Made by a program: the position numbers and the translations under genes
The notes under the pieces: model-generated
What the model was told of the DNA's origin: nothing
The model's input: only the letters and a program-made list of their open reading frames with translations
Databases searched by the model: none
Shown: one piece after another, positions 10,893 through 57,326 of the stretch
Layout: every line of letters begins with the position of its first letter
Position numbering within the stretch: position 1 is the stretch's first letter
Source: Candidatus Woesearchaeota archaeon
GTDB lineage: Archaea > Nanobdellota > Nanobdellia > Woesearchaeales > ARS49
Direction: 5' to 3'
Length of the DNA stretch: 64,000 nucleotides
Assembly (NCBI GenBank): GCA_016215315.1
Contig: JACRKG010000045.1
Span: 19,204 to 83,203, forward strand

Positions 10893-10893
10893 A

Positions 10894-44984: not shown

Positions 44985-45095
44985 AAAAAATACTGCGTAT
45001 TTTTTAGTTTATAAAACTTTTTAGGAAAACAAGCAACTCAAGCGTGATGCGCACTACTGTGCTTACCCGCAAATACTTTTTTTCAGGTTCATGAT

Positions 45096-45168
45096 TAGCT
45101 CCGCTCGGATTTGAACCGAGGTCTAGAGGGCCAGAACCTCTTATGCTTGACCACTACACCACGGAGCT
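45096..45168 (-). tRNA. tRNA-Gln(CTG)
   Basis: Reverse complement folds: acceptor AGCTCCG/CGGAGCT, anticodon stem AGAGG/CCTCT loop TTCTGGC, T-arm CTCGG-TTCAAAT-CCGAG. Confidence 0.7.
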
Positions 45169-45204
45169 ATTTGATAACAGAAACTAGATTAGTATTATAA
45201 ATTT

Positions 45205-46113
45205 TTATTGCTGTGCTGGCGGTTTGTTTTCTGTTGGTGGAGGAGGATTGTTTTTATTTAGTTCGTCTTTAATTCTGTGAAAAACATCGCTTTTTCTTGC
45301 GTTTAAATCGTTGATTTTTTCTTTTCTTAATTTTATAGAAGAACTAAGAACATCAAATAAGTTTTGTGTTGAGGATAGACAAGTTTCGATCATATTTGTT
45401 ATTGTTTCGCTTTTCCAGGTTAATTTCGCTTCGTTCATTGAACTTAATAATTCATAGATTTTCTCAAAAGAACTTATTATGCTGTTAAATATTAGTTCTG
45501 TATTAACTGAGTCTATGTTTTTCACAAAAATGGAGTCATCTGATTTATTTATCAAAGCAAAAGTTTCTCTGAGAGAATCTTCTAATGGAGAAATAAAATT
45601 GTACATACTGATTATTTCTCTTCTTCTTATACTGCCATCTTCAACTTTAGTTATCATTCTATCTAAGTTTTGTCTGAACAATAAAAGAGAAGATCTTAAT
45701 TTGTTTATTCTCTCAGTAAACGAAAGGTCGTACAATTCATTGAGTATTGCGTCTTGTTTTATCGAAACTAATTTTGAAGTTACTAACGCTAAAAGCAATA
45801 GTCCTGAAATAACTTCCAATATGGCAATCAGTTTAAACGAACCTGTAGGGATGATATCTCCAAAACCAGTAGTTGTTGCAGAAACAAAACTAAAATAGAG
45901 TGAATCAGTAACACTATTTACGGGTGTTTCTTTTGCAACATAAAGAAGAAAAGAATTACTTCCGCTGAAAAAATAGTAAATAAATCCAAAAAGAATAATT
46001 GCGAAAATCCAGAAAATAAGAATATTGGCAAAACTGACTTTATCAAGGAAGCTAGTTAGTTTTTTCTGTTTTAAGCTTCTAAAAAATGCATCAATATCCA
46101 GAAAATCTTTCAC
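45205..46113 (-). CDS. Two-TM potassium channel with cytoplasmic C-terminal domain
   Basis: Selectivity-filter-like ATTTGFGDI between two TM helices. Confidence 0.6.
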   Translation of the reverse strand: MKDFLDIDAFFRSLKQKKLTSFLDKVSFANILIFWIFAIILFGFIYYFFSGSNSFLLYVAKETPVNSVTDSLYFSFVSATTTGFGDIIPTGSFKLIAILEVISGLLLLALVTSKLVSIKQDAILNELYDLSFTERINKLRSSLLLFRQNLDRMITKVEDGSIRRREIISMYNFISPLEDSLRETFALINKSDDSIFVKNIDSVNTELIFNSIISSFEKIYELLSSMNEAKLTWKSETITNMIETCLSSTQNLFDVLSSSIKLRKEKINDLNARKSDVFHRIKDELNKNNPPPPTENKPPAQQ

Positions 46114-46213
46114 GAGCCCACCTCAATAAATTGGAAATTGTGGTTGTTTATAAAGTTTGTTTTTATTACCCTTAAAATACTAAAAAATTATATACTTTTC
46201 TCTGTTTCTATTC

Positions 46214-47164
46214 TTGATGGGGATAAATCCTGAACTAAAATCGCACTTGGCACACTTGGGTAATTTAGGAATCTTTACTGCGTATAGATCAATGCCTTTT
46301 TTTCATTTACTAAAATACACCGGTTTTACTAATTTTACAGAACAGAGAGGTTGTATGTCAGTTAAGAATAAATCTTCAAAAACAGATGATTTAATTGACT
46401 GGCTAGAAATAGTCTTGAATGATAATGTTTTGAGATTTGATGAATGGGGGCAAATTCTTGAGTGTAAATTAACAGATGAAGATCAGAAAGAATTGATTGT
46501 TGTACTAAAAGGTTTTGAAGAATACTTAGTGCATTCTTTATTCAGAACGTATTTTTTTAAGAGTACTGTTGGAGTTGATGCTCCTTTAGAGGATTACTTG
46601 AACATGAACGTTTGTCCTATTGTAGTTGAGTTTTACAATTTTATCGAGTCTGATTTTAAAAAAATAGAACCATTGCTCAAAGAAGCAAAAATAACTGTTG
46701 AAAAACTTAAATTTTTCAAAAGCGAATATAATATTGAGGTTGAACTTGGAAAGGATTTTTTGAAACTGAGCGCAAAAAATTCTTTCATAAAGATTCCTTT
46801 AGTTAAATTTGAAAGGCATTACTTCACTCAGACTTACAAAGCAAGAGGGGATATCTTATATTCTTATGTAAAATTCAGAGACCAATGGATGAATGTTCCC
46901 GAACCATCAAAATTCACTTTAGATCCTCTCAATACTGGTATTTCAGCAATATATTTCTCGGAGTATTATGATAAAAAAGTGAGAGAAACAGAATCGGGAA
47001 AAGAATCAATGGAAGAAATAGACAAATCTTTTCCGCTAAAACAAAAAATCTCTTTGGTAGAATATCAAGGAGACCAGAAAATATGTGCTCGTCTCGCAGG
47101 AAGATTACTTTGTTCTTTGGGAAGTTATATGGCTAAAAATGGAAAAAACTTATTAGTGTTATGA
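46214..47164 (+). CDS. Hypothetical protein (316 aa)
   Basis: ORF. Confidence 0.45.
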   Translation: MMGINPELKSHLAHLGNLGIFTAYRSMPFFHLLKYTGFTNFTEQRGCMSVKNKSSKTDDLIDWLEIVLNDNVLRFDEWGQILECKLTDEDQKELIVVLKGFEEYLVHSLFRTYFFKSTVGVDAPLEDYLNMNVCPIVVEFYNFIESDFKKIEPLLKEAKITVEKLKFFKSEYNIEVELGKDFLKLSAKNSFIKIPLVKFERHYFTQTYKARGDILYSYVKFRDQWMNVPEPSKFTLDPLNTGISAIYFSEYYDKKVRETESGKESMEEIDKSFPLKQKISLVEYQGDQKICARLAGRLLCSLGSYMAKNGKNLLVL

Positions 47165-47706
47165 TTATAATTAGCCCATGTTTGAGCTTGACCTTTGAAT
47201 TTTTCACTCGCTTCTATTCTGTGTATTACACTTTCATTACAAGGCTTATATTTTTTCTTTACTTCTTAATAAGCGGTGAAAACATGGTCAAACAAACTAA
47301 TGTATTTGAAAAGATTGAACAATTTAAAAATGTTTTGAAGCCTTTAACGGTTGGAAAAACAGATCAAGACATAAAATTAATGCTTTGTCATTGTAAGCAT
47401 TACAATCTCAGTCTAAGAAAAAGCTTAACTACAGAAGAATATGCTTTAAATGATTTTCTTATGAAAAAAGGTTTGAATGCTAAAACTATTTATGAAAATT
47501 TTGTATTCATAGATTATCCTCAAAGCATAAAGAACTTGTTAGCAGAGAGGAAGATTTCCATAAAAGAAGCGCAATCGCGTTTTATGGCAATTAAAAAATT
47601 GGTAAACGTGAGGGATGGTAAAGATTTAATGACTGAAATAAAATCAGTCATAAGGAGGTTAGAATGGTCTGGGCTCAACAAAACTATCACAACACAGGAA
47701 ATTTAA
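47161..47706 (+). CDS. Hypothetical protein (181 aa)
   Basis: ORF overlapping by 4 nt. Confidence 0.45.
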   Translation: MIIISPCLSLTFEFFTRFYSVYYTFITRLIFFLYFLISGENMVKQTNVFEKIEQFKNVLKPLTVGKTDQDIKLMLCHCKHYNLSLRKSLTTEEYALNDFLMKKGLNAKTIYENFVFIDYPQSIKNLLAERKISIKEAQSRFMAIKKLVNVRDGKDLMTEIKSVIRRLEWSGLNKTITTQEI

Positions 47707-48497
47707 GCAAAACTCAAGAAAAAAAGAGAAAAAGAAAAAGATTTCCTAATGTATTTTTCAAGAACGAAATAACTGAATTATTTGACAATATTGAAGATCT
47801 TAAAACGATGATGGCTAGTTTTTTGGCTTTCTTTTGCGCATTAAGAAATAGTGAAGTATGCAAACTAAAATGGCAAGATATAGACTTAGAAAACAAAAGA
47901 TTAAAGGTTGTGGACGGTAAAAACCACAAAGACGGATTTATACCAATAAGTTCTGTATGCATACCAATACTCAGAAAATGGCGGCAAATAAACTCTGAGT
48001 CAGAATATTTTTTGTCGGGGGAAGCAAAAGGGCTGCCGTTCTTAAGCTCGCATGCATTACTGGAGCGCTTTAAAGTTGCATTATCCAGAGCAAATCTTGA
48101 CATTCCAACAGAGAAAAATGCGGGAGGAAATCAACAGCATCAATACAAATTTCATACTTTGAGGCACTCTAGATGCACCCACTTATTGAACAATGGTGTG
48201 CCAATACAAAAAGTTCAGCACTTCATGAGGCACGACAAAATAGAAACAACAATGCATTACACGTGGATCTTAGACACAGAATTAAACAAAATGGTAGAAA
48301 AAGTTGATACTTCGCCAATGAAAATGTATCAAGAAATAATGCCGGAAAACAATCAATTTACTCAAACACAAACAATAGTGCAGCAAGAACACAGCAATCC
48401 AATAGAAATCGCCAAAAGACGCTTAGCATTTGGAGAAATCAGCCCCAGAGAATTTAAAAGAATAGTTGGAGTGCTTCAAACACCGCTAAGTGTCTGA
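47664..48497 (+). CDS. Tyrosine recombinase/integrase (XerC/XerD/phage integrase family)
   Basis: ALRNSE (R), HTLRHS (HxxR), RHDKIETTMHY (R/H...Y) catalytic signature. Confidence 0.75.
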   Translation: MVWAQQNYHNTGNLSKTQEKKRKRKRFPNVFFKNEITELFDNIEDLKTMMASFLAFFCALRNSEVCKLKWQDIDLENKRLKVVDGKNHKDGFIPISSVCIPILRKWRQINSESEYFLSGEAKGLPFLSSHALLERFKVALSRANLDIPTEKNAGGNQQHQYKFHTLRHSRCTHLLNNGVPIQKVQHFMRHDKIETTMHYTWILDTELNKMVEKVDTSPMKMYQEIMPENNQFTQTQTIVQQEHSNPIEIAKRRLAFGEISPREFKRIVGVLQTPLSV

Positions 48498-48524
48498 AAA
48501 GTTACTTCTTTTTTTCAGTCCATT

Positions 48525-48800
48525 TTGGACTGCTTTTTTTCTTCAACCCAATATTTATTCTCACTTATCTTTCATAAGAATATGAAAAATAAAAAAATAA
48601 AAAAGCAAAAAAACAGATATAGGTTCAACTTTATTGAAGAAGAACCGGCAGTTTCTTTTTGTGAAATTTGCGGCGTCCCTTCAAAAGACGCTAAAGTAAT
48701 GTTTTCTAGAAAATTCAAGTGCGAAATTTGTACAACCTGCTACGAGGAAAGACTAAATGAAAACACAGGGGATGTTATAGATCCAAAATGGTGGAAATAA
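48525..48800 (+). CDS. Zinc-ribbon small protein
   Basis: CEICG...CEICTTC. Confidence 0.4.
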   Translation: MDCFFSSTQYLFSLIFHKNMKNKKIKKQKNRYRFNFIEEEPAVSFCEICGVPSKDAKVMFSRKFKCEICTTCYEERLNENTGDVIDPKWWK

Positions 48801-48831
48801 AAGTTCAAAAATATCAAGGAGGAAAAACAAA

Positions 48832-49251
48832 ATGACAAATGAAATACAAAAATATGATCCGCAGGCTTTTGCGGCGCAGAGAGTTTATGACAGGCTCACA
48901 GAGCCTTTAGAAGATTTAACGTCAGTTCAACAGATTAACACTATTGCTGTAGGTGTTGGAAACTTGAAAAGAACTCTTGAAGAAGTAGTTGAAAAGTTAA
49001 AAGACAAAGCTGTTGACGAACAAAAGAAAGTCGTTGGAGAAAAAGACGATAAAGTGCAAAATGTTTATTCTGGACTTGATAAAGCCAGAAGAACTAACGA
49101 CTTTGAAATGTACGACAAAGTGAGCATGGATGTAATCAGAGCAATCATGCAGGCTAAAGGCTCAGTTTCTGATTTGAGATTGTTACAAGCTGGAGATTTT
49201 GATGGTTACGTGAAAAGTCAAAAACTTCTTACAGAAGGTGATGCGAAATGA
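48832..49251 (+). CDS. Hypothetical protein
   Basis: AGGAGG SD. Confidence 0.45.
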   Translation: MTNEIQKYDPQAFAAQRVYDRLTEPLEDLTSVQQINTIAVGVGNLKRTLEEVVEKLKDKAVDEQKKVVGEKDDKVQNVYSGLDKARRTNDFEMYDKVSMDVIRAIMQAKGSVSDLRLLQAGDFDGYVKSQKLLTEGDAK

Positions 49252-49778
49252 ATGATTTAGACCAAAAACTCAAACAGTATGAGACTACTGCTGTTGATGT
49301 TACTAACAAAATGTATGATCCTAATCTCAGAACTGAGAGCAGCAAAGAGGTTTTAGAGAATTTTCCGAATGTCAGGCTGGCTTCGGAAAAACAAGAAAAC
49401 AAAGCAGTTATTGGGCGGAAAGGAATTAATTTCCTTTCTGCCTTATTTTTATCAGCAGGAATAGGCATCGGAGGATACTTTGTTGGCAACTATCAAGGAA
49501 AACATCATGGATTCGAGAAAGGACAAGAAATATTACTGAGAGAAATTACAAGAAATTATTTCGACAGCAAAACAAGAAGTTATCTAGGGCATGAAAGGTT
49601 TTACACAAAAATAATGAGTCCTGCAATTCTTGGAAGGGAACCGACAAGCAAAGAGTTTGATATAATTCTTGATGAAGTACTAAACACTATTGTTCCAGAA
49701 AGCGGCTTGCCTCTAAGAGAACACATAACTGAAAGTTCAAAACATGGCTACTTTTATTTTGGAGGTGTAAAAAAATGA
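49248..49778 (+). CDS. Hypothetical membrane-associated protein
   Basis: One TM (INFLSALFLSAGIGIGGYFVG). Confidence 0.45.
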   Translation: MNDLDQKLKQYETTAVDVTNKMYDPNLRTESSKEVLENFPNVRLASEKQENKAVIGRKGINFLSALFLSAGIGIGGYFVGNYQGKHHGFEKGQEILLREITRNYFDSKTRSYLGHERFYTKIMSPAILGREPTSKEFDIILDEVLNTIVPESGLPLREHITESSKHGYFYFGGVKK

Positions 49779-50170
49779 AAGCAATACAAATTTTCTTTTT
49801 TTCTTTACTTTATTTTTTAGTTTATTTAACAATAAGTTTGGCTATTGATTTGTATTTCGGCTTAGAAACGAGTATTCCTGAACTTGTAACTATTGGTTTG
49901 ATGTTTAACCTTTTACTGATTGTTTTGCTTGTTTTTGAAGTTCCAGACAAGATTGCTGAAAAGTTTGCCAGAAAAAAGGAAAGTGTTTTGTTCTACATAA
50001 CTGAAGACGTAAAAGATGATAAAAATACTTCTGAATTGTTGGAAACTCTTGAAGGAAACGCAACAAAAATAGAATCCCCTAAGAAGTCTGAAGAAAAATC
50101 CAATGAGAAAATCATAGAAGCTGAATTTGTGAAACAAGTTCAAGATCAAAAAGAAGAAAACATATACTGA
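49775..50170 (+). CDS. Membrane protein
   Basis: Two N-terminal TM helices. Confidence 0.45.
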   Translation: MKAIQIFFFSLLYFLVYLTISLAIDLYFGLETSIPELVTIGLMFNLLLIVLLVFEVPDKIAEKFARKKESVLFYITEDVKDDKNTSELLETLEGNATKIESPKKSEEKSNEKIIEAEFVKQVQDQKEENIY

Positions 50171-50182
50171 GGAGGTAAAAAA

Positions 50183-50533
50183 ATGGAAACAATTAACATT
50201 TTGCTTAAAATTTTGATGTACATTTTAATAATTACAACCCCATTAATACTTGGGTCAAAATTAGTTAACGCTTACCCTTACAATACTATCAGCAGTCAGG
50301 ATCAGCAAAAGATTGACGAAATCATGGCTCCATTCAACAAAGTATTCAATTTCGTTAGAATCGCAGCTGGTTCTGTAGCAGTTTTTGTTCTTATTTTAGC
50401 TGGAGTGGTTTACATGACTGCTGGAAGTGATGTTGGAAAGAAAGAGAAAGCCAAAAACATGGCCACCGGAGTTATTGTTGGACTAATGATTTTTGTTGTA
50501 GCACCAACAGCAGTACAATACCTAATAACTTGA
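50183..50533 (+). CDS. TrbC/VirB2-like pilin candidate
   Basis: 116 aa, long signal/TM, second hydrophobic helix near C-terminus, GGAGG SD. Confidence 0.4.
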   Translation: METINILLKILMYILIITTPLILGSKLVNAYPYNTISSQDQQKIDEIMAPFNKVFNFVRIAAGSVAVFVLILAGVVYMTAGSDVGKKEKAKNMATGVIVGLMIFVVAPTAVQYLIT

Positions 50534-50543
50534 GGAAAAAATA

Positions 50544-51491
50544 ATGAAAAAACAATCTAGATACTTACAAGTATCAATAATTTTAATTGCATTATTGCTC
50601 ACTTTTAATTCAGTTAGTGCGAGCCACAATGATGATGAAGAACCTCCAGATAAAGGCTTTTTTGGCAACATCTTTGATGACTTAACTGATGCAATAACTG
50701 CAATACCTGAGATGTTATTAGATTTGTTTCTCGACATAATTAACGCTCCAATTAGACCTTTATTGAGTTTTATTAAAACTCTTCTAGGTGAGCCACCGAG
50801 CACAAGTATTTTTAAAAGTATTTGGAGTATAGTTGTCTACATTTTCAGTTTTTGTTTTAGTTTGATTCTTGTTTTTTGCGGTTTCAGTTTTATTCTTTCA
50901 GGGCATGATGTTGAGAAAAGAGAAAAAGCTAAAGATTGGCTAAAAAACACATTAATATTGATTATTTTGTTGCCTGCAAGTTACTTTATTTATGAATTAA
51001 TTCTTCAATTTAGTGCAGGACTTACAAATTTTGTCTTAAACATAATACGTCCAGAATTTTTTTTAATAACTTCAAATAATCTTGGAGATATTTTCTTAAG
51101 CCTCGCGTTATCAATACCTTACTTAATTGTCTTGTTATTAACTGGCATTGTTTTAGTTATTCGTTATGCACTCATTAGTGCAGGAGTGATATTTTTTCCT
51201 ATAGGAATCTTTTTTTATTTCATCAGTCCACTTAAAAGTTATGGTAGTTTTATAATTAATTTTTTGATGATAAATATATTTATAGGTTTCATTAACGCAT
51301 TGTTTTTGCTTGCATTTTCTAAGCTTGTTGAACTACCTGTATTTAGTACTTTGAAAATTCTAGTCATGATCTCAGCTTTTTTGATTATTGATTTAATAAC
51401 AATTTTTGCGATGGTTTTCGCACTCATCAAAGCAGCAGTAAACTTCGGAAAGACCGTTGTTAATCCAGTAGTTAAAATTGTAAAACCATAA
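50544..51491 (+). CDS. Polytopic membrane protein (VirB6/TrbL-like candidate)
   Basis: Signal peptide plus at least 6 TM helices. Confidence 0.4.
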   Translation: MKKQSRYLQVSIILIALLLTFNSVSASHNDDEEPPDKGFFGNIFDDLTDAITAIPEMLLDLFLDIINAPIRPLLSFIKTLLGEPPSTSIFKSIWSIVVYIFSFCFSLILVFCGFSFILSGHDVEKREKAKDWLKNTLILIILLPASYFIYELILQFSAGLTNFVLNIIRPEFFLITSNNLGDIFLSLALSIPYLIVLLLTGIVLVIRYALISAGVIFFPIGIFFYFISPLKSYGSFIINFLMINIFIGFINALFLLAFSKLVELPVFSTLKILVMISAFLIIDLITIFAMVFALIKAAVNFGKTVVNPVVKIVKP

Positions 51492-51495
51492 AAAA

Positions 51496-52449
51496 ATGAA
51501 TGATACTCAAACTTTTCGGAAATTGAATGTTGTTGACTTCTTTTGCGGAGCTGGAGGATTCAGCAAAGGTTTCGAGCAAGCAGGCTTCAACATATTGGCA
51601 GGAATAGATTTTAATGAGAATGCAATAGCCACGTTCAAACAAAATCATTCTGGTAAAGGGGTTGTCAGGGACATAAAAAAGTTGTCTCTAAAAGAGTTTA
51701 ATGAGCTCACAGGATGTTCTGGCGTCGATGTTTTGATCGGTGGCTTTCCGTGTCAAGGATTTAGTCTTCTTGGGAAGCGTAACAAAAAAGATCCTAGAAA
51801 TCTTTTATACAGAGAATTATTACGTTTCATTGAAGGATTAAAGCCTGAGTTTGTTATTCTTGAAAATGTGAGGGGTTTGGCTTCAATGAAGGATTCTAAA
51901 AATAATTCTGTTTTATCCTCTATACTGCAAGAAATTATTTCACTAGGTTACTGTGTTAGTTACAAAGTTTTGCTGGCAAGCGATTATGGAGTTCCACAAA
52001 ACCGTGAGCGATTAATCATTTTTGCACAGAAAATAAACTTTTTTGACATTCCAAAAATTGAAAATAAAACAACAGTGATTGAAGCTTTGCAAAACATTCC
52101 TGAAGGATTAAATGCTCACATTGTTGTAAATCATAAGCCAGAATATTCTGAGCGTTTAGCACAAGTTGCACAGGGTAAAAGTCTTGGAAAATTCAGATCT
52201 TGCATGAGACTTCAGGCAGATAAGCCAAGCAACACAATAACGAGCGGAGACTTAATACATCCAACACTCAATCGTTTCTTAACTCCTAGAGAAAGCGCGC
52301 GATTACAAGGTTTTAGCGACGATTTTGTTTTTTGCGGTGGAAGAGAAAGTATCAAGTTGCAAATTGGTAATGCAGTTCCTCCACTACTTGCTAAAGTTCT
52401 TGCAAATCAGCTATTAGCTGAGATTAATCGAGGTGTTTCAAATGTATGA
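51496..52449 (+). CDS. dcm: DNA (cytosine-5)-methyltransferase, no adjacent restriction enzyme recognised
   Basis: Motifs I FFCGAGGFS, IV GFPCQGFS, VI ENVRGL, VIII QNRERL, X GNAVPP. Confidence 0.9.
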   Translation: MNDTQTFRKLNVVDFFCGAGGFSKGFEQAGFNILAGIDFNENAIATFKQNHSGKGVVRDIKKLSLKEFNELTGCSGVDVLIGGFPCQGFSLLGKRNKKDPRNLLYRELLRFIEGLKPEFVILENVRGLASMKDSKNNSVLSSILQEIISLGYCVSYKVLLASDYGVPQNRERLIIFAQKINFFDIPKIENKTTVIEALQNIPEGLNAHIVVNHKPEYSERLAQVAQGKSLGKFRSCMRLQADKPSNTITSGDLIHPTLNRFLTPRESARLQGFSDDFVFCGGRESIKLQIGNAVPPLLAKVLANQLLAEINRGVSNV

Positions 52450-55195
52450 AATACCTCAAGAATTGCAATATTCTGAAAAGATTGTTTTTGGTTTAACATT
52501 GAAACAAACTTTTGTTGTATTAAGTACAGGAGTACTGGTCTATTTTACAATTTTCAAATGGCTCATCAGTCCTTGGATAAAATATTCTTTAGCTTTGTTG
52601 ATTGTTGTTCTTGGTGTTTTGTTTACTTTTTTCAAACTAGACCAGTTAATCTCGAACTTTTTGTTGTGGATTTGGAGCAAAAGAATTAAGTTTTTTCAAA
52701 GCCAATCATTGTTCGGAGTTCAAAAATTTGAGAATGATTTCATGTTTGTTAAGGGCGTTAGGACTGTTGTTCTTGAAGTTTTTCCAATGAATTATGGAAT
52801 AAAAAACAATACAGAACAAGAAAGTATTGTTAAAATTTTTAGAAAATTGTTGCAAAGCATTGATTATCCTACACAGTATTTTATGAGGACAGAACCTTTA
52901 GAAATAAAGAAATACCTTGAAGTTTTAGGAAATAAAGTTTCTGAAGTCTCTGCAAAAACTCAAAACAAAATTTATGAGGAACAATTTGCAGGTCTTGAAA
53001 AGCACTTAAATCAAACAATAAGTGAAAATAATCTTTGTAATAGAAAATTCTACATAATAATCCCAGAACTCGCTGGATTAGAAATTCAAGTCAAAATAGT
53101 AGAAGACAAAATCAAAAATCTCGGATTAAAAAGCAAAAGACTTATTGGTAAAGAACTTGAAAAACTCATCAAAGAATTTATTAATCAAGAAAACAAAGAG
53201 TTAAAGAATTGCAAGAATCATTTAGAAATTGGCAAGACTTTTCACAGAGTAATAACTGCTGTAGGCTATCCGAGAATAGTTGAAGCAGGATTTCTCGACA
53301 AAATAATCACTTTACAAGGAAATTTCGACTTAAGCATACATATACAACCAAAACAGATTAGCAAAACTATTGTTGATTTGAACAGAGACTTGCAAAAACA
53401 AAGAAGCGACTTGTACTCAGAACAACTAAAAAATATAATCAATCCAAGTTTAGAGATAAAATATGAAGATACTCGAAGAATTCTTGAAGAATTGCAAAAA
53501 GGAAAAGATAAACTCTTTGACGTCAGTTTATACATTAATTGCCGAGCTAATAAGTTAGATGAATTAAATCTCTTAACCCGTAAAGTCGAAGCAGAACTTA
53601 ACAGCACATTAATCATTCCAGAAGTTCAAAATTTCAAGCAATTACAAGGCTTGAAGAGTGTTGCTCCAACAAGCAAAAATATTTTGAAAGTTAATAGAAA
53701 CATTACAACAACGGCATTATCAGCATTTTTTCCTTTTACAAGCAAATTCTTAGAAATAGATAATTCTGGAGTGTGGTTTGGCTTGAACAAAAACAACATT
53801 CCAATAATCATTGATCCGTTCAAGTTGAGCAATCCTAATGGAGTTATATTGGCAACTTCTGGAGCAGGAAAAAGCTATTTAGCTAAATTGTTGATTTCTA
53901 GACAATTATTGACTGGAAGTCAAGTTATTATTATTGATCCTCAAGGAGAATACACTGATTTAGTGCAAAAATTTAATGGTCAAATTATTGATTTACACAC
54001 GAAAAGCAAAACAATAATTAATCCTTTGGATTTAATGAATAAAACTTACGAGGATAAACGTTTGTTCTTAATGGATTTAATAAAAGTAATTTTTGGAGAA
54101 ATAAGCCCCCATCAGAAAAGCATTATTGACAAAGCAATAAGCTTAGCTTACACAAAAAAAGGAATTACTGATGATCCGAATACTTGGAATAAGGAGCCTC
54201 CGAAACTAGAAGATGTTCTTCAAGAAATAGTAAAAATGAAGGCAAAGGCCAGTGAAGTTACTGAGTACGGCATTGCAGCTCTAGAAAACAAATTAGAACT
54301 TTACGTCAATGGTGTTTTCAAATTCTTAAATCAGCACACTCAATTAAAACTTAATAATCAATTGATTTGCTTTAATATCCAGAAATTACCTAATCAAGTT
54401 CAGCCGGTAATGATGTTCTTAATTTTGGATTTTGTTTATACAACAATGCAAAAAGAACTCAATAGAAAGATTTTACTTATTGATGAGTCATGGAAGTTAT
54501 TGTCAAGAACGGAAGATGCAGGCTACGTTTTTGCTATTGTAAAAACTTGTCGTAAGTTCAATATGGGACTTTTGCTTATCAATCAAGAAGTTGAAGGATT
54601 GCTAGAAAGCAGTGCAGGAAAAAGTGTTTTGGCAAACAGTTCATACACAATATTGCTTAAGCAGAAACCTTCAGTAATCAAGCAATTAAAAACAACTTTT
54701 GACCTTTCAGATTATGAAAGAGATTACTTGTTAACTGCTAATGTTGGTGAAGGAATACTTATTACGGATCAAGAGCATAATGAGCTAAAAATTATTGCTT
54801 CTAAAGCTGAGCACGATTTGATTACTACTAATGCTGACGAGAAATTACAACAAAAGAATAATAAGGTTGAAAAAAATGAAGACAACAAGCCAAAAGAAGA
54901 AAAACCTGTTAAGAAAACAGAACTTGATTTTACAAAAATAGCTTACGACAAAGAAATTCTTAGTAAAGAACAAATTGAGCTGTTGAAAAATAAAGGTTAT
55001 CAAGAATTTTCAGAAAAAATCTTCAGTACAACAAAAGCATACTTTGTAAAAAGCCAAAATAGTGAAGAAATTACTTGTTTATTCAATCTTTGCACAATAA
55101 CTGACTATTTGAGAAGTAAAAGTTTTAGCGCAAAAATAGTCAAGAAAAACAAGAAATTCTTTTTAGAGGTAGAAAAATGCCAGAAAACTCATTAA
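52433..55195 (+). CDS. VirB4/TrbE/CagE-family conjugative ATPase with N-terminal VirB3-like TM segment
   Basis: N-terminal 2 TM helices; Walker A ATSGAGKSY; Walker B LLIDESWKLL. Confidence 0.7.
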   Translation: MFQMYEIPQELQYSEKIVFGLTLKQTFVVLSTGVLVYFTIFKWLISPWIKYSLALLIVVLGVLFTFFKLDQLISNFLLWIWSKRIKFFQSQSLFGVQKFENDFMFVKGVRTVVLEVFPMNYGIKNNTEQESIVKIFRKLLQSIDYPTQYFMRTEPLEIKKYLEVLGNKVSEVSAKTQNKIYEEQFAGLEKHLNQTISENNLCNRKFYIIIPELAGLEIQVKIVEDKIKNLGLKSKRLIGKELEKLIKEFINQENKELKNCKNHLEIGKTFHRVITAVGYPRIVEAGFLDKIITLQGNFDLSIHIQPKQISKTIVDLNRDLQKQRSDLYSEQLKNIINPSLEIKYEDTRRILEELQKGKDKLFDVSLYINCRANKLDELNLLTRKVEAELNSTLIIPEVQNFKQLQGLKSVAPTSKNILKVNRNITTTALSAFFPFTSKFLEIDNSGVWFGLNKNNIPIIIDPFKLSNPNGVILATSGAGKSYLAKLLISRQLLTGSQVIIIDPQGEYTDLVQKFNGQIIDLHTKSKTIINPLDLMNKTYEDKRLFLMDLIKVIFGEISPHQKSIIDKAISLAYTKKGITDDPNTWNKEPPKLEDVLQEIVKMKAKASEVTEYGIAALENKLELYVNGVFKFLNQHTQLKLNNQLICFNIQKLPNQVQPVMMFLILDFVYTTMQKELNRKILLIDESWKLLSRTEDAGYVFAIVKTCRKFNMGLLLINQEVEGLLESSAGKSVLANSSYTILLKQKPSVIKQLKTTFDLSDYERDYLLTANVGEGILITDQEHNELKIIASKAEHDLITTNADEKLQQKNNKVEKNEDNKPKEEKPVKKTELDFTKIAYDKEILSKEQIELLKNKGYQEFSEKIFSTTKAYFVKSQNSEEITCLFNLCTITDYLRSKSFSAKIVKKNKKFFLEVEKCQKTH

Positions 55196-56232
55196 TAGAT
55201 AACGAATTATTTATTATTTCACTGTTTCTTATAGGAACTCCTTTAATTATTATAGGTTTCGTAAACACTAATTATTACATCATTCCAAATTTTTCAATGT
55301 ACAATTTATTTCTTGCCTTGCCGGGATTTGTTGGCATAATTGTATTCATTTGCGTTTTAACATACCTAATTCTAAAGATTTTTCACTTAGTACAGTATTT
55401 GTTTGTCCGGCGTAAAATAATTAGTTTAAAACAAAAAGAACAAACAATAAAAACACATCAAGAAAATCACATTGCTAAATTAAGCGAAGAGTTAGATAAA
55501 ATATTTCTTGAAGCAAAACCATTACTAAAAGCAGAAAACACCTTTGAAAACAAGCAAAAACTTGAAGAAATACAAAAAGAATTATTACAATCAAAATTCA
55601 AAGACTTAGAATTACACAAGAAAAGAATTCAATACGTTCAACAAATCGGAGAAAAAGTAAGAGAAATAGAAATCTACTTGAAAAGTAAAGAAAAAGAAAT
55701 ATTAGGTAAAGAAGAACAAAGATTAAAAGAATTAAAAGCAGAATGTGGGTACGTCAAAGGCGCAAAATTATCTGATTGGGATAAAGAATTGTTATTAAAA
55801 AGAGGTTTTGCCAAATTACAATGTAATGAGTTTTGTGGACGTGGAAATCCAGTATATTTCTTAAAACCGAGAGATAAAGAAACTCCAGAGCACTTCTTTT
55901 TAGTTAGGCATACTCAAGAATATCTTGAAAATAAAGGGATAACTGCAACAACACCTGAAAAAAGAGATGCAGATGTTATCTTTGAAATAAATGGAGTAAC
56001 TTATGCAATAGAAGTTGAAACTGGAACTTATCCTGAGAAGAAACCTGAAGAATTTGAAAATAAAATAAAACAATGCAATGACAAATACGGCAACAATTGG
56101 ATGTTTTTAGTGGTTCATAGAGATCTTATTTCATTCTATAAAAAGTACAATGCAAAAACATATCATCGTGAACAGATGGTGGAGGTGCTGGATGTAATAA
56201 CATCAACAAATCACATCAACAAAAATAATTGA
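55177..56232 (+). CDS. Membrane-anchored coiled-coil protein with C-terminal possible nuclease-like domain
   Basis: 2 N-terminal TM, K/E coiled coil, C-terminal DADVIFEINGVTYAIEVETG block. Confidence 0.45.
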   Translation: MPENSLIDNELFIISLFLIGTPLIIIGFVNTNYYIIPNFSMYNLFLALPGFVGIIVFICVLTYLILKIFHLVQYLFVRRKIISLKQKEQTIKTHQENHIAKLSEELDKIFLEAKPLLKAENTFENKQKLEEIQKELLQSKFKDLELHKKRIQYVQQIGEKVREIEIYLKSKEKEILGKEEQRLKELKAECGYVKGAKLSDWDKELLLKRGFAKLQCNEFCGRGNPVYFLKPRDKETPEHFFLVRHTQEYLENKGITATTPEKRDADVIFEINGVTYAIEVETGTYPEKKPEEFENKIKQCNDKYGNNWMFLVVHRDLISFYKKYNAKTYHREQMVEVLDVITSTNHINKNN

Positions 56233-56330
56233 AAAATTGATGTGGGATTTATAAAAAAATCACATCAATAAATTTGACAAAAACACAGAAAACTCTGAAA
56301 GAAAATCAGAAAACACATCAACAAAATTTC
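56200..56330. repeat. Iteron-like repeats CACATCAA(C/T)AAA (4 direct and 1 inverted copy)
   Basis: Copies at about 56201, 56212, 56261, 56314 and inverted TTGATGTG at 56237. Confidence 0.55.
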
Positions 56331-56375
56331 CACTTATATACATATAATTTTACTTAATATGGGGAGGGCAATAAA

Positions 56376-56651
56376 ATGGAAAATGAAACACAACAAAACA
56401 CAACACAAAGTGTGACACCAAGTGTGCCGCAAAGTACAACGCCAGTTTTCAAACCTAATGTAAATCAGGACGATAGCGTTGGTTCTTTTATCAGAAAACA
56501 AAACATCAAAACCAAAATTAATCAACTAGGCTGTCAAGTCGGAGTAGATTTTTATCCTCGCTTTAACGAATTTCTAGAAAGCACGATAGTAAAAGCAATC
56601 TTTAGAACTAAATGCAACAGAAGAAAAACTGTTCGTGGGATGGATATCTAA
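56376..56651 (+). CDS. Hypothetical protein
   Basis: GGGGAGGG SD. Confidence 0.4.
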   Translation: MENETQQNTTQSVTPSVPQSTTPVFKPNVNQDDSVGSFIRKQNIKTKINQLGCQVGVDFYPRFNEFLESTIVKAIFRTKCNRRKTVRGMDI

Positions 56652-56652
56652 A

Positions 56653-57186
56653 ATGACTTACGCAGTATATGTGAGAGTCAGCACGGAAGAGCAGAATTTG
56701 GATATGCAAAAACTTGAGATAAGCAATTATTGTCAGAGAATGGGCTGGAATTATGTGATTTACGAGGAGAAAGAAAGTACTAGAAAAACACGTCCAGTAA
56801 AACAATGGTTATTGCAGCAATTGCGTCTGAAAAAATTTGGTGGTGTGATCGTTTGGCGTTTGGACAGATGGGCTAGAAGTTTGCAAGAGTTAGTCATGGA
56901 TCTCGAGGAAATGACAAACAAAAACATAAAATTCATTTCACTTCGTGATAATGTTGACTACACTAGTGCAAGTGGTCGAGCGTTTACACAAATTTTGTGT
57001 GTCTTTGCAGAGTTCGAAAGACAATTAATAAGAGAAAGAACTCTAGCAGGATTAGCCAGGGCAAAAGCCGCAGGCATTAAACTCGGTCGTCCAAAAGGCA
57101 GCAAAGATGGAAAAGTCCGTCGGAAAAGCGGATACTACATGCGCTACATTCTGGAAAACAATAAGCACAAAGAATTCGCTCTTTGA
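56653..57186 (+). CDS. Serine recombinase (resolvase/invertase family)
   Basis: YVRVSTEEQ catalytic Ser motif; start taken at MTYAVY. Confidence 0.8.
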   Translation: MTYAVYVRVSTEEQNLDMQKLEISNYCQRMGWNYVIYEEKESTRKTRPVKQWLLQQLRLKKFGGVIVWRLDRWARSLQELVMDLEEMTNKNIKFISLRDNVDYTSASGRAFTQILCVFAEFERQLIRERTLAGLARAKAAGIKLGRPKGSKDGKVRRKSGYYMRYILENNKHKEFAL

Positions 57187-57326
57187 AAATATTTTTTTAT
57201 TTTTTTCTATTTTTAATACGAGCGAATAAGCGCCGTCCGTCGGTTTTGGTCATTTAGAGGCTGATTTTGCTTAACAGTCTGAATTTGTTTGGTTTGTATA
57301 TTTGAGGGGTTTTATCTTCTCACAAA

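What the first reader, a model, noticed from the sequence alone, without database searches (positions are those of the whole stretch)
45096..57320. About 12-kb integrated conjugative/plasmid-like island beside tRNA-Gln in an AT-rich archaeon
Downstream of tRNA-Gln(CTG) lies a block of mobile-element genes:
- a tyrosine integrase;
- a VirB2/TrbC-like two-helix small membrane protein;
- a polytopic VirB6-like protein;
- an orphan C5-cytosine methyltransferase;
- a 920-aa VirB4/TrbE-type ATPase with a fused VirB3-like TM N-terminus (Walker A GAGKS, Walker B DESW);
- a membrane/coiled-coil protein;
- iteron-like repeats and a serine recombinase.
This is the gene set of a minimal type-IV-secretion-like conjugative apparatus or an integrated plasmid. 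It would be unusual and of interest in a small-genome, DPANN-like archaeon. No relaxase or coupling protein is recognised, so the element may be non-autonomous or use a novel DNA-processing enzyme among the hypotheticals (46214-47706, 48832-50170, 55177-56232).
Basis: partly seen in the sequence, partly recalled or inferred. Interest (0 to 1): 0.75.

Follow-up and report, generated by a model that had tools for sequence, protein, structure and literature searches.

The report
Mobile DNA-transfer gene island in Woesearchaeota
An ultra-small (DPANN) archaeon carries an ~11-kb horizontally mobile gene block encoding a stripped-down conjugation-type (type IV secretion) machine whose motor is paired with a membrane-anchored DNA-cutting-type domain; the machine is common but apparently undescribed in these archaea.

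Summary
The gene list is largely real. The host is a Woesearchaeota archaeon. Confirmed parts are a T4SS pilin, a VirB3(PrgI)-VirB4 fusion ATPase of the Firmicutes-type CD1110/MPF-FATA clade, an orphan C5 methyltransferase, a tyrosine integrase, a serine resolvase and iteron-like repeats.

Corrections:
- The ORF beside tRNA-Gln is a K+ channel, not the integrase.
- The integrase lies at 47161-48497 and is split into two ORFs.
- No att repeat or tRNA fragment exists, and composition is not distinctive.
- The 'VirB6-like' protein shows no VirB6 homology, only a pilin-like hairpin plus four more TM helices.

New results:
- The 351-aa membrane/coiled-coil protein ends in a PD-(D/E)xK nuclease-fold domain. 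The same domain is fused to the C-terminus of VirB4 in 99 of 119 relatives.
- The block 48.8-57.2 kb recurs at 75-78% nucleotide identity in other Woesearchaeota MAGs with unrelated flanks. This is more similar than RNA polymerase predicts, so it looks mobile.
- About 700 homologues exist, typically among integrases, DNA methylases, R-M genes and reverse transcriptases. No relaxase or coupling ATPase was found near any.

Best reading: a relaxase-less, coupling-protein-less integrative DNA-transfer element. It is a new variant of a known kind. A domesticated DNA-uptake or host-interaction system remains a serious rival.

The parts
45095..45169 (-). tRNA-Gln(CTG). A neighbour, not shown to be an attachment site. 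Its 3' end points away from the island.
   Evidence: ARAGORN and Rfam, 60.8 bits. No repeat of any part of it occurs in the window.
45205..46113 (-). K+ channel gene (TTGFGD filter). A host-type gene, not part of the element and not an integrase.
   Evidence: Pfam Ion_trans_2, E 3.7e-13. Homologues at 45-55% identity lie in other Woesearchaeota without any T4SS context.
46214..47164 (+). 316-aa hypothetical protein. It heads the same-strand gene run and overlaps the next ORF by 4 nt. Membership of the element is uncertain.
   Evidence: No hit in Pfam, PHROGs, NCBIfam or PDB. No homologue in the 92 related loci then fetched.
47161..47706 (+). 181-aa ORF read as the N-terminal (core-binding-type) part of the split tyrosine recombinase. 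The core-binding assignment is inferred from position and from reading the sequence. It has no family hit.
   Evidence: Homologous to the 140-aa ORF directly upstream of the integrase in L004 (32% identity, E 4e-23). The same -1 overlap arrangement occurs in both loci. No Pfam hit.
47664..48497 (+). Tyrosine recombinase/integrase, catalytic domain only, with its own GGAGGT ribosome-binding site.
   Evidence: PF00589, E 3.2e-28. Closest NCBIfam model is XerA_Arch, 1e-29, below its cut-off. 59% identical to the integrase at the same position in L004. The R, HxxR and Y motifs are visible in the sequence.
48525..48800 (+). Small CxxC...CxxC zinc-ribbon protein. It is the positional counterpart of the ~58-aa zinc-ribbon gene that precedes the pilin gene in 30 related loci.
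   Evidence: Sequence. Cluster c3.
48832..49251 (+). 139-aa conserved soluble protein, first gene of the horizontally shared block. Function unknown.
   Evidence: 74% and 45% identical in L002 and L001; also present in L004 and L028.
49248..49778 (+). 176-aa single-pass membrane protein, conserved in L001 and L002. Candidate accessory subunit of the T4SS.
   Evidence: tblastn. TM at aa 62-80.
49775..50170 (+). 131-aa two-TM protein with an acidic tail. Candidate accessory subunit.
   Evidence: TM prediction. Weak conservation in L002.
50183..50533 (+). VirB2/TrbC-type T4SS pilin: signal peptide plus two hydrophobic helices.
   Evidence: PF18895, E 4.3e-11; TrbC 6.9e-6. Weak hit to the mycoplasma ICE pilin Mbov_0395. 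Present in 67 of 86 related loci.
50544..51491 (+). Polytopic membrane protein (at least 6 TM) with a pilin-like hairpin at aa 89-155. It occupies the VirB6 position directly upstream of VirB4, so it is the presumed channel subunit. Homology to VirB6 is not shown.
   Evidence: TM prediction. Of 65 homologues, 29 hit T4SS_pilin and 27 hit Mbov_0395; none hits VirB6/TrbL. hhalign against Firmicutes CD1112 VirB6 is negative. Present in 77 of 86 loci.
51496..52449 (+). Orphan C5-cytosine DNA methyltransferase inserted inside the T4SS operon.
   Evidence: PF00145, E 2.6e-66. 82-83% identical in L001-L003. L004 has an N4/N6 methylase between the pilin and polytopic-protein genes instead. A DNA methylase lies within 8 kb in 24 of 44 related loci.
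52433..55195 (+). VirB3(PrgI)-VirB4 fusion ATPase, 920 aa. Its C-terminal tail (aa 828-916) is a truncated copy of the nuclease-fold domain.
   Evidence: NF045971, 327.6 bits against a cut-off of 325; PF19044, PF01935, PF12846 and PF12666. PDB 4ag5, E 3.5e-32. Walker A at aa 477 and Walker B at aa 684. Tail against the domain profile: hhalign probability 95.8%, E 8e-9, with the PD segment missing.
55177..56232 (+). 351-aa protein: 2 N-terminal TM segments, a coiled coil, and a C-terminal PD-(D/E)xK (restriction-endonuclease-like) fold domain at aa ~198-351. Candidate DNA-processing subunit.
   Evidence: - TM prediction.
- Invariant E, H, D, ExE, G and K across 21 homologues.
- AF2 pLDDT 92.3.
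- The same domain is fused to VirB4 in 99 of 119 homologues.
- 790 library representatives match the domain profile.
56196..56330 (.). Iteron-like array. Four direct copies of ACATCAAYAAA, three of them about 50 bp apart, plus one inverted copy at 56236-56244. Presumed binding sites for the downstream histone-fold protein and/or the resolvase (res- or centromere-like).
   Evidence: Four matches against 0.33 expected (sequence). L001 and L002 have different repeats with ~50-bp spacing at the same position.
56376..56651 (+). 91-aa histone-fold (DUF1931-like) small protein, apparently in an operon with the resolvase. The evidence is weak.
   Evidence: Profile against PDB: DUF1931 protein 9qt0, E 0.013; histone H4, E ~0.03 over the ...RKTVxAMDI helix. 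Conserved in L001-L003.
56635..57186 (+). Small serine recombinase (resolvase/invertase type) with catalytic Ser in YVRVSTEEQ.
   Evidence: PF00239, E 1.3e-36. 75% identical in L001-L003. A resolvase lies near VirB4 in 8 related loci.
57228..57240 (+). GC-rich motif AAGCGCCGTCCGT marking the right end of the shared block. Homology to L001-L003 stops immediately after it. Candidate element end or recombination site.
   Evidence: Present once per element in the window, L001, L002 and L003 and nowhere else in 99 loci.

Best explanation
**What it is**
An ~11-kb horizontally mobile, chromosomally inserted element of a Woesearchaeota (DPANN) archaeon. It spans about 46.15-57.24 kb, with a shared core at 48818-57240. 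It encodes a minimal conjugation-type DNA-transfer machine derived from the monoderm (MPF-FATA/CD1110) branch of type IV secretion systems.

**Proposed working**
- Shown by homology: the pilin (50183-50533) builds a VirB2-type tube or pilus.
- Inferred from topology and gene position: the polytopic pilin-hairpin protein (50544-51491) forms the membrane channel in the place of VirB6.
- Shown by homology: the membrane-anchored VirB3-VirB4 fusion ATPase (52433-55195) powers assembly and translocation.
- Inferred: there is no relaxase and no coupling ATPase. DNA is instead prepared at the channel by the membrane-anchored PD-(D/E)xK-fold protein (55177-56232). This domain is physically fused to VirB4 in most relatives.
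- Inferred: the C5 methyltransferase embedded in the operon methylates the element, or protects self DNA from restriction or from the system's own nuclease.
- Enzyme classes shown, roles inferred: the split tyrosine recombinase (47161-48497) inserts and excises the element. The serine resolvase, with the iteron array and the histone-fold protein (56196-57186), resolves or stabilises the circular form.
For: **Homology of the core parts passes curated thresholds**
- VirB4 scores 327.6 bits against the CD1110 cut-off of 325; PrgI and T4SS_pilin also pass.
- PDB VirB4 4ag5, E 3.5e-32.
- The closest plasmid relatives are conjugative Firmicutes plasmids, where VirB6-like, PrgI and VirB4 genes follow in that order, with a small ORF interposed in two of the three.

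**Mobility**
- The block 48818-57240 is 75-78% identical at nucleotide level in three other assemblies. Flanks are unrelated on both sides.
- VirB4 is 80% and 78% identical to copies in GCA_053533315.1 and GCA_053530895.1.
- No RpoA' above 85% identity exists in the database. The three best (85, 84 and 75%) come from other genomes and all others are 73% or lower. Genomes with ~70% RpoA' normally have ~48-50% VirB4.
- L004 repeats the layout split integrase - small ORFs - pilin - methylase - polytopic protein - VirB4 - nuclease protein, with 59% integrase identity.

**Family context**
- Tyrosine recombinases lie within 10 kb in 21 of 54 loci, mostly upstream on the same strand.
- Five loci have the order tRNA, integrase, T4SS.
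- L076 has a 13-nt copy of the tRNA-Glu 3' end on the far side of the T4SS.
- DNA methylases lie near 24 of 44 loci, and type I R-M, reverse transcriptase and Fic genes recur.
- This contrasts with the fixed dnaA-proximal context of the Patescibacteria T4SS (PMC12102498).

**Nuclease domain**
- Invariant acidic residues.
- Fused to VirB4 in 99 of 119 homologues.
Against: - No att direct repeats and no tRNA fragment were found in the window.
- No empty site was found in a relative, because flank synteny is absent in the species representatives available.
- GC is not distinctive and tetranucleotide composition is only mildly atypical.
- No circular or plasmid form and no IMG/VR hit were found.
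- No replication initiator, relaxase or coupling ATPase was found here, and no second ATPase recurs next to VirB4 in 86 related loci. Self-transfer of DNA is therefore unproven.
- Many relatives (e.g. L005 and L006, two copies on one 760-kb contig) have only the pilin-to-VirB4 core and no recombinase within 10 kb. That is what a domesticated cellular system would look like.
- In the closest relatives L001-L003 no integrase adjoins the module; the only one seen lies about 8 kb beyond the resolvase in L001.
- The nuclease domain has E in place of the canonical K of the ExK motif, so activity is not assured.
- The RpoA' genes of the two MAGs with the closest VirB4 were not themselves located.
Confidence: 0.55

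Rival explanations
1. **Domesticated cellular T4SS.** The pilin-channel-VirB4-nuclease core is a host-benefiting apparatus of DPANN archaea, comparable to Ced/Ted DNA import or the Patescibacteria epibiont T4SS. It would take up DNA or other macromolecules from the host or neighbouring cell. The nuclease domain would cut incoming DNA for recombination or nucleotide salvage, and the methylase would mark self DNA. Integrase and resolvase would then reflect residence in a variable genomic island, not self-transfer.
For: - No relaxase or coupling ATPase was found in the island, and no second ATPase recurs next to VirB4 in 86 loci.
- It is often found without a recombinase within 10 kb, in 33 of 54 loci.
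- Two copies lie on one chromosome-sized contig.
- A nuclease fused to the motor suits processing of imported DNA.
- Precedents exist. Ced and Ted are domesticated T4SS that import DNA (PMC9905601). The Patescibacteria T4SS lacks relaxases and is thought to be co-opted (PMC12102498). T4SS-like tubes have been proposed for macromolecule uptake in an epibiont (bioRxiv 10.64898/2026.06.21.733656).
Against: - Context is not conserved and is rich in mobile-element and defence genes. The Patescibacteria system, by contrast, sits near dnaA.
- The window's block shows horizontal-transfer-like similarity.
- It travels with its own recombinases and methylase, in the same order, in L004.
Confidence: 0.3
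2. **Decaying remnant.** The island is an inactive relic of a once-conjugative plasmid: integrated, boundaries eroded, no longer mobile and perhaps no longer functional.
For: - No att repeats.
- The integrase is split into two ORFs.
- VirB4's own nuclease tail is truncated and has lost the PD segment.
- No Rep, relaxase or T4CP was found.
Against: - All ten core ORFs are intact and tightly packed or overlapping.
- They are conserved at 45-83% amino-acid identity in L001-L003 without frameshifts.
- The integrase split is conserved in L004 and the second ORF has its own ribosome-binding site, so it is not a random frameshift.
- An intact nuclease-domain protein follows VirB4.
Confidence: 0.08
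3. **Restriction-modification or defence island.** The C5 methylase and the PD-(D/E)xK protein form an R-M-like defence pair, and the T4SS genes are unrelated neighbours.
For: - A methylase and a REase-fold protein lie two genes apart.
- Related loci are full of R-M, reverse transcriptase, Fic and AbiE genes.
Against: - The nuclease-fold domain is covalently fused to VirB4 in 99 of 119 homologues, whether or not a methylase is present.
- The methylase type varies among C5, N4/N6 and MT-A70 while the nuclease domain stays the same.
- The methylase is absent from 20 of 44 loci.
Confidence: 0.05

Closest known systems
MPF-FATA / CD1110-type conjugation modules of Firmicutes plasmids and ICEs (e.g. 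pCF10 Prg/Pcf, Clostridioides CTn, B. thuringiensis plasmids) and mycoplasma ICEs
   Same: - VirB4 passes the curated CD1110-family threshold. It also scores 298 bits against the mycoplasma ICE ATPase model, below that model's cut-off of 590.
- A PrgI/VirB3 element is present.
- The pilin weakly resembles the Mbov_0395 ICE pilin.
- Gene order is a polytopic membrane protein followed by (PrgI)-VirB4.
   Different: - No VirD4/CD1115 coupling protein, no relaxase, no VirB1-type lysozyme and no VirB8/PrgL.
- VirB3 is fused to VirB4.
- The polytopic protein has no detectable VirB6/CD1112 homology.
- A PD-(D/E)xK-fold domain is attached to, or follows, VirB4.
- The host is an archaeon.
Patescibacteria (CPR) T4SS (PMC12102498)
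   Same: - Ultra-small symbiont lineage.
- The VirB4 is related to the MPF-FATA class in both.
- PF18895/PF04956 pilins and PrgI-type VirB3.
- Relaxase absent from most clusters.
   Different: - The CPR system lies in a conserved chromosomal context near dnaA, dnaN and ribosomal genes, and no VirB3-VirB4 fusion was found there.
- Here the fusion is the rule and the context is integrases, methylases, R-M genes and reverse transcriptases.
- The paper's text has no occurrence of 'nuclease'. The direct phylogenetic relation between the two systems was not tested.
Ced (Sulfolobales) and Ted (Thermoproteales) DNA-import systems (PMC9905601)
   Same: An archaeal, minimal system of VirB2-like pilin, polytopic channel and VirB4/HerA-like ATPase. 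It has no relaxase, and no coupling protein is listed among its components.
   Different: - Ced and Ted are stable chromosomal systems of Crenarchaeota, co-regulated with DNA repair. HerA-NurA is proposed to make the ssDNA.
- Here the module travels with recombinases and a methylase, belongs to the Firmicutes-like VirB4 clade and carries its own nuclease-fold domain.
- Orthology to CedB or TedB was not tested.
Archaeal conjugative plasmids and ICEs (Sulfolobus pNOB8/pING type; Thaumarchaeota ICEs, PMC6563490)
   Same: Archaeal integrated elements with VirB4, a VirB6-position membrane protein, an integrase and no recognisable relaxase.
   Different: - Those elements carry a VirB4/TrbE plus VirD4/TraG ATPase pair. 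The thaumarchaeal ones have a median size of 64 kb and carry replication modules and TFIIB/ParB genes.
- This element is ~11 kb with a single ATPase and no replication module.
PD-(D/E)xK nucleases: Hjc, VRR-NUC, NgoMIV/Cfr10I-type restriction enzymes, Can2/Card1 nuclease domains
   Different: - No sequence-family membership: no Pfam hit and only a weak Imm48 match.
- The canonical Lys of ExK is Glu, and an invariant Lys lies 15 residues downstream.
- The domain is attached to a T4SS motor or to a membrane anchor.

Membership tests
Conjugative T4SS (CONJScan-style definition: VirB4 + T4CP + relaxase + accessory MPF genes) | VirB4-family ATPase | tested here: met
   NF045971, 327.6 bits against a cut-off of 325. 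PF19044, E 5.6e-24. PDB 4ag5, E 3.5e-32.
Conjugative T4SS (CONJScan-style definition: VirB4 + T4CP + relaxase + accessory MPF genes) | Type IV coupling protein (VirD4/TraG/TcpA) | tested here: not met
   No such hit among the island ORFs. No recurrent second ATPase occurs next to VirB4 in 86 related loci, and the sporadic ATPases are AAA, helicase or defence types. The rest of the genome was not searched.
Conjugative T4SS (CONJScan-style definition: VirB4 + T4CP + relaxase + accessory MPF genes) | Relaxase (MOB family) | tested here: not met
   No relaxase family hit in Pfam, NCBIfam or PHROGs for any island ORF. MOBscan profiles were not available.
Conjugative T4SS (CONJScan-style definition: VirB4 + T4CP + relaxase + accessory MPF genes) | VirB2-type pilin and VirB3 | tested here: met
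   PF18895, 43.2 bits against a cut-off of 26.6. PF12666 PrgI, 28.2 bits against a cut-off of 27, at the VirB4 N-terminus.
Conjugative T4SS (CONJScan-style definition: VirB4 + T4CP + relaxase + accessory MPF genes) | VirB6/TrbL/PrgH channel protein | tested here: inconclusive
   Topology (at least 6 TM) and gene position fit. No Pfam or NCBIfam VirB6 hit in 65 homologues. hhalign against CD1112 proteins gave probability below 1% with a shallow template. The AF2 model is unusable, pLDDT 58.
Integrative and conjugative element / integrated plasmid | Site-specific recombinase belonging to the element | tested here: met
   Integrase PF00589, E 3e-28. The same integrase type sits at the same position in L004. 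A resolvase is conserved in L001-L003.
Integrative and conjugative element / integrated plasmid | Flanking att direct repeats, often a tRNA 3' fragment | tested here: not met
   No repeat of 13 nt or longer links the edges, and there is no tRNA-derived repeat. Family members show tRNA-integrase adjacency and one has a 13-nt candidate.
Integrative and conjugative element / integrated plasmid | Presence/absence polymorphism (empty site) or excised circle | tested here: inconclusive
   No syntenic relative was available and no circular contigs were found. Indirect support comes from unrelated flanks in L001-L003 and from the VirB4 versus RpoA' identity discrepancy.
Ced/Ted archaeal DNA-import systems | Stable chromosomal locus without mobile-element genes; import directionality; DNA-damage induction | not testable with these tools
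   Context here is mobile-element-like. Directionality and regulation need experiments. Orthology to CedA, CedB, TedA or TedB was not tested because no reference sequences were in hand.
Patescibacteria-clade T4SS | Conserved chromosomal position near dnaA/dnaN; VirB3 separate from VirB4 | tested here: not met
   VirB3 and VirB4 are fused in the window and in most of the 86 loci. Neighbours are integrases, methylases and R-M genes.
PD-(D/E)xK nuclease superfamily (C-terminal domain of 55177-56232) | Restriction-endonuclease-like alpha/beta fold | tested here: met
PD-(D/E)xK nuclease superfamily (C-terminal domain of 55177-56232) | Catalytic motif D...(D/E)xK and nuclease activity | tested here: inconclusive
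   Invariant E38, H42, D69, E82, E84 and K99. The canonical K position is E. Activity is not testable here.
Type II restriction-modification system | Methyltransferase with an adjacent cognate endonuclease that co-varies with it | tested here: not met
   Methylase type varies or is absent while the nuclease-fold domain stays linked to VirB4.

The most novel reading that the evidence does not exclude
Woese-, Pace- and Nanoarchaeota possess their own class of type IV secretion machine. In it the VirB3-VirB4 motor is covalently or operonically coupled to a PD-(D/E)xK nuclease at the membrane. That nuclease replaces the relaxase/coupling-protein pair.

Two outcomes are possible. One is a relaxase-independent mode of conjugation, in which DNA is cut and fed into the channel by the motor-bound nuclease. 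The other is an uptake machine that pulls in and cuts host DNA, feeding nucleotide-auxotrophic DPANN cells, with the co-located methylases marking self DNA.
Probability: 0.25. Interest if true: 0.85.

Novelty: new variant of a known kind. Interest (0 to 1): 0.62.

Why it matters
- **DPANN biology.** DPANN archaea depend on other cells, yet how they exchange DNA or material with hosts is largely unknown. T4SS have been analysed in their bacterial counterparts (Patescibacteria). I found no description for Woesearchaeota or Pacearchaeota in 7.7 million PMC papers plus bioRxiv.
- **A ready target.** This window gives a compact, intact example of a family with about 700 members. That makes it a concrete target for studying gene flow, or DNA and nutrient acquisition, in DPANN.
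- **Relaxase-free transfer.** Archaeal conjugation has no known relaxase. A nuclease-fold domain wired to the VirB4 motor offers a specific, testable candidate for how DNA is processed.
- **Methylases in the operon.** The recurrent methylases inside the operon suggest a link between transfer and restriction evasion.

Tried and rejected
- **att sites.** I searched for exact and near-exact direct repeats between 44.9-48.9 kb and 55.1-60.4 kb. I also searched the whole window for the tRNA with 60 nt of flank on each side. Only chance-level AT-rich 12-13-mers turned up. The same search in L002, L004 and the tRNA-bearing family loci was negative, except for one 13-mer in L076. About 17% of shuffles give some 13-mer match there, though a GC-rich match exactly at the tRNA end is less likely than that.
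- **Empty site.** Relatives of the K+ channel gene in GTDB species representatives (L007-L011) share no flanking synteny, so no comparison was possible.
- **Composition.** GC is identical to the flanks. Tetranucleotide distance is 0.131 against 0.07-0.10 for typical windows, but the RNAP operon region is higher still, so it is not diagnostic.
- **Circular or viral forms.** No terminal overlaps in 92 contigs and no IMG/VR hit.
- **VirB6 identity.** Pfam and NCBIfam scans of 65 homologues, a PDB profile search, hhalign against Firmicutes CD1112 proteins and a single-sequence AF2 model (pLDDT 58) all failed to show homology.
- **Hypothetical proteins.** The 316-aa, 181-aa, 139-aa, 176-aa and 131-aa proteins gave no hits in Pfam, PHROGs, NCBIfam or, for the 316-aa one, PDB.
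- **Genome accessions.** The cluster-member look-up returned no accessions, so I could not find the RpoA' of the two MAGs with the closest VirB4.
- **Transposon-like ends.** I looked for terminal inverted or direct repeats at the ends of the shared block and found only A/T runs.
- **Rejected: the resolvase block as an IS607-like transposon.** The catalytic domain is N-terminal, as in resolvases, and there are no terminal repeats.
- **Rejected: the island as a provirus.** No PHROG hits and no capsid or terminase genes.

Full report
**1. What is in the sequence**

The window comes from an archaeon.
- It encodes split RpoB''/RpoB' and RpoA'/RpoA'' subunits at 4865-12015 and a wyosine-synthesis enzyme.
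- A protein 100% identical to the large ATPase is deposited as 'Candidatus Woesearchaeota archaeon' on an 88.9-kb contig.
- The only RNA gene is tRNA-Gln(CTG) at 45095-45169 on the minus strand.
- From 46214 to 57186, fifteen ORFs of 91 aa or more run on the plus strand with small gaps or overlaps. Minus-strand genes flank them on both sides.

- 50183-50533 is a T4SS pilin: PF18895 E 4e-11, TrbC 7e-6, signal peptide plus two TM helices.
- 51496-52449 is a C5 DNA methyltransferase (E 3e-66) with no neighbouring endonuclease gene.
- 52433-55195 is a VirB4 ATPase.
  - It passes the curated NCBIfam threshold of the 'VirB4-like conjugal transfer ATPase, CD1110 family' (327.6 against 325 bits).
  - It matches the solved VirB4 domain 4ag5 (E 3.5e-32).
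  - It has Walker A at aa 477 and Walker B at aa 684.
  - It starts with a two-TM PrgI/VirB3-like segment.
- 56635-57186 is a serine resolvase (E 1e-36).
- The iteron-like repeats are real. ACATCAAYAAA occurs four times between 56200 and 56325, plus one inverted copy. Only 0.33 matches are expected in the whole window and there are none elsewhere.

**2. Corrections**

- *The ORF beside the tRNA.* 45205-46113 (minus strand) is a potassium channel (Ion_trans_2, E 4e-13), not an integrase. Its relatives in other Woesearchaeota lie in unrelated contexts.
- *The integrase.* The catalytic domain is 47664-48497 (PF00589, E 3e-28).
  - It lacks an N-terminal domain. I read the overlapping upstream ORF 47161-47706 as supplying that domain, on positional grounds; it has no family hit.
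  - The same two-ORF arrangement recurs in locus L004. There is a -1 overlap, and the second ORF has its own GGAGGT/GGGGGT ribosome-binding site.
  - The L004 integrase is 59% identical. The split therefore looks native rather than a lesion.
- *The tRNA.* Its 3' end points away from the island.
- *att sites.* No repeat of 13 nt or longer from the tRNA region exists in the window, and none links the two island edges.
- *Composition.* GC is 32.3% against 32.6%. Tetranucleotide distance is only mildly raised and is lower than that of the RNA polymerase operon region.
- *The 'VirB6-like' protein.* 50544-51491 is polytopic with at least 6 TM and sits where VirB6 sits in Firmicutes modules.
  - None of 65 homologues hits a VirB6/TrbL model.
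  - Instead, 29 hit the T4SS pilin model and 27 hit the mycoplasma ICE pilin model, over a hairpin at aa 89-155.
  - Profile-profile comparison with Firmicutes CD1112 VirB6 proteins is negative.
  - A single-sequence AF2 model is unusable.

**3. New features**

*A nuclease-fold domain coupled to VirB4.* The 351-aa 'membrane/coiled-coil' protein (55177-56232) ends in a ~150-aa domain.
- The same domain forms the C-terminus of VirB4 in 99 of 119 long homologues.
- In an alignment of 21 sequences, E38, H42, D69, A80, E82, E84, G86, K99 and Y124 are invariant. The motif reads ...NES..H...PDIVF...AIEVETG...K.
- AlphaFold2 gives pLDDT 92.3.
- Pfam has no model for it.
- A profile search of 1.84 billion representatives finds 790 members, 578 of them at E 1e-10 or better.
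- Among the 148 best-scoring representatives read, 102 are stand-alone 200-450-aa proteins, and 62 of those carry one or two N-terminal TM segments.
- The window's own VirB4 retains a truncated copy at aa 828-916 (hhalign probability 95.8%). That copy has lost the PD segment, as if the function had moved to the downstream gene.

*A histone-fold protein.* The 91-aa protein upstream of the resolvase resembles histone-fold/DUF1931 proteins. The match is weak but consistent: 9qt0 at E 0.013 and histone H4 at E ~0.03 over ...RKTVxAMDI. It follows the iteron array. L001 and L002 have different repeats with the same ~50-bp spacing at the same place.

*A possible right end.* A GC-rich motif, AAGCGCCGYYCGT, lies 42 nt after the resolvase stop. 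It occurs once in each of the four related elements, and homology ends right after it.

**4. Is it mobile?**

The block 48818-57240 comprises ten genes, from the 139-aa ORF to the resolvase. It recurs at 75-78% nucleotide identity in GCA_053533315.1 (L001), GCA_053530895.1 (L002) and a Logan contig (L003). Flanks are unrelated on both sides.

The RNA polymerase comparison points the same way.
- VirB4 is 80% and 78% identical to those copies, then 65-59%, then about 50% for hundreds of others.
- For the far more conserved RpoA', the best database relatives are 85%, 84% and 75% identical. They come from other genomes: GCA_016213425.1, a CG10 MAG (by its deposited name) and GCA_016188265.1. Every other hit is 73% or lower.
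- Genomes at ~70% RpoA' identity normally show ~48-50% VirB4 identity. The module is therefore much more similar than vertical descent predicts.
- Caveat: the RpoA' genes of the two MAGs were not located.

L004 (VirB4 59% identical) repeats the whole layout. This includes the split integrase and a methylase inside the operon, although that methylase is of the N4/N6 class.

**5. The family**

Eighty further metagenome loci were fetched.
- Their recurrent core is: RHH protein, MT-A70 or N4/N6 methylase, zinc-ribbon protein, pilin, a ~450-aa secreted membrane-anchored protein, the polytopic protein, VirB4 with the nuclease domain, and a ~62-aa protein.
- Tyrosine recombinases of three types lie within 10 kb in 21 of 54 loci with enough flank. 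Most are 3.6-9 kb upstream on the same strand.
- Five loci show the order tRNA, integrase, T4SS.
- L076 has a 13-nt copy of the tRNA-Glu 3' end on the far side of the module.
- DNA methylases lie within 8 kb in 24 of 44 loci.
- Type I R-M genes, reverse transcriptases, Fic and DUF2779 genes recur.
- No second ATPase recurs, and none of the sporadic ones is a coupling protein.
- No contig is circular and none is in IMG/VR.
- Some loci (L005 and L006, two copies 40 kb apart on a 760-kb contig) have only the core.

**6. Interpretation**

The homology evidence places the motor, VirB3 and pilin in the monoderm MPF-FATA/CD1110 branch. That is also the branch to which the Patescibacteria T4SS is related (PMC12102498).

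Unlike that system, this one is not tied to a conserved chromosomal neighbourhood, and it has VirB3 fused to VirB4. Unlike Sulfolobus plasmids and thaumarchaeal ICEs, it has one ATPase rather than two and is only ~11 kb (PMC6563490). Like Ced and Ted it is minimal and lacks a relaxase (PMC9905601).

I therefore favour (0.55) a small integrative element that moves between Woesearchaeota using a minimal T4SS. In this view the membrane- or motor-bound nuclease-fold domain does the DNA processing, the embedded methylase serves anti-restriction or self-marking, and two recombinases handle integration and resolution.

The main rival (0.30) is that the core is a cellular DNA or macromolecule uptake or host-interaction machine that merely resides in variable islands. 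A decaying remnant (0.08) and an R-M island (0.05) are less likely.

Shown: homologies, fold, repeats, distribution, context, and flank and identity discordance. Inferred: channel role, nuclease activity, direction and substrate of transfer, roles of the recombinases, and the exact boundaries.

**7. Novelty**

Searches of the held literature found T4SS analyses for Patescibacteria, Nanohaloarchaeota giant proteins, Ced/Ted, Sulfolobus and Thaumarchaeota. They found none for this Woese/Pacearchaeota family or for a VirB4-nuclease fusion.

It is a new variant of a known kind of system. This particular island is one well-preserved member of it.

Noticed in passing
window 47161-47706 and 47664-48497; L004 3845-4267 and 4234-5055: The tyrosine recombinase is encoded as two overlapping ORFs: an upstream N-terminal part and a catalytic domain, with a -1 overlap of 43 nt (window) and 34 nt (L004). 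The second ORF has its own GGAGGT/GGGGGT site 5-7 nt before the ATG. The arrangement is conserved between elements whose integrases are only 59% identical. It looks like a native two-polypeptide recombinase or a programmed frameshift, not a pseudogene.
   Followed up: partly
window 56376-56651: A 91-aa protein carried by the mobile block weakly resembles histone-fold/DUF1931 proteins (9qt0 E 0.013; histone H4 E ~0.03 over NEFIEDTLVKAVYRTKCNKRKTVRAMDI). It sits between an iteron array and a resolvase gene.
   Followed up: partly
window 54914-55180 (VirB4 aa 828-916): The VirB4 tail is a truncated copy of the nuclease-fold domain (hhalign probability 95.8%). It lacks the conserved 'KPDIVF' segment and everything after 'EVE'. 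An intact copy is encoded by the next gene.
   Followed up: yes
window 57228-57240; L001 14788-14800; L002 14754-14766; L003 6979-6991: The GC-rich motif AAGCGCCGYYCGT occurs once per element, 42 nt after the resolvase stop, in a 32% GC genome. Homology between the elements stops right after it. No partner copy lies at the left end.
   Followed up: partly
L076 4884-4896 and 18060-18072 (L075 is the same element): A 13-nt copy (TATGCTCCCGCCG) of the 3' end of tRNA-Glu(CTC) lies 13.2 kb from the tRNA, on the other side of a T4SS module. Next to the tRNA is a 1018-aa ORF combining integrase, GmrSD_N, HEPN_Swt1 and DUF5655 domains. This is a candidate complete element with att sites. tRNA-Gln(CTG) is the next gene.
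   Followed up: partly
L005 and L006 (GCA_964573625.1, contig CAZNJU010000001.1, ~565-631 kb): Two copies of the pilin-to-VirB4 core (VirB4 982 and 984 aa) lie about 40 kb apart on one 760-kb contig. No recombinase was called within 10 kb of either.
   Followed up: no
L013-L092 (clusters c13, c21, c9/c14/c22, c17): Reverse transcriptases (10 loci), Fic proteins, complete type I R-M systems and DUF2779 proteins recur next to the T4SS core. AbiEii-type genes also appear, in L001 and L060. The modules sit in or next to defence-island-like regions.
   Followed up: partly
P0256 (511 aa): One representative carries the nuclease-fold domain at aa 355-511. Its N-terminal stretch, read by eye, resembles the start of the ~410-aa integrases (cluster c20) found upstream of the T4SS in related loci. 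This would be a recombinase-nuclease fusion.
   Followed up: no
window 3274-4221 (minus strand): A NurA-domain protein (E 3e-7) is encoded in the host part of the window. HerA-NurA has been proposed as the source of ssDNA for relaxase-less archaeal DNA transfer (PMC9905601).
   Followed up: no
window 57803-58780; L001 21137-22171; L002 20547-21500; L004 2371-3348; 13 loci in all: A ~320-aa regulator with two AsnC/HTH_24 domains lies within 10 kb of the T4SS in many loci, often with a ~93-aa partner gene (cluster c8). It is only ~30% identical between elements. It is unclear whether it belongs to the elements or is a common host gene.
   Followed up: partly
L002 5490-5566: The closest relative of the window's module has tRNA-Gln(TTG) about 800 bp to the left of the shared block, with its 3' end facing the module. 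No repeat of it was found within the 22.7-kb locus.
   Followed up: yes
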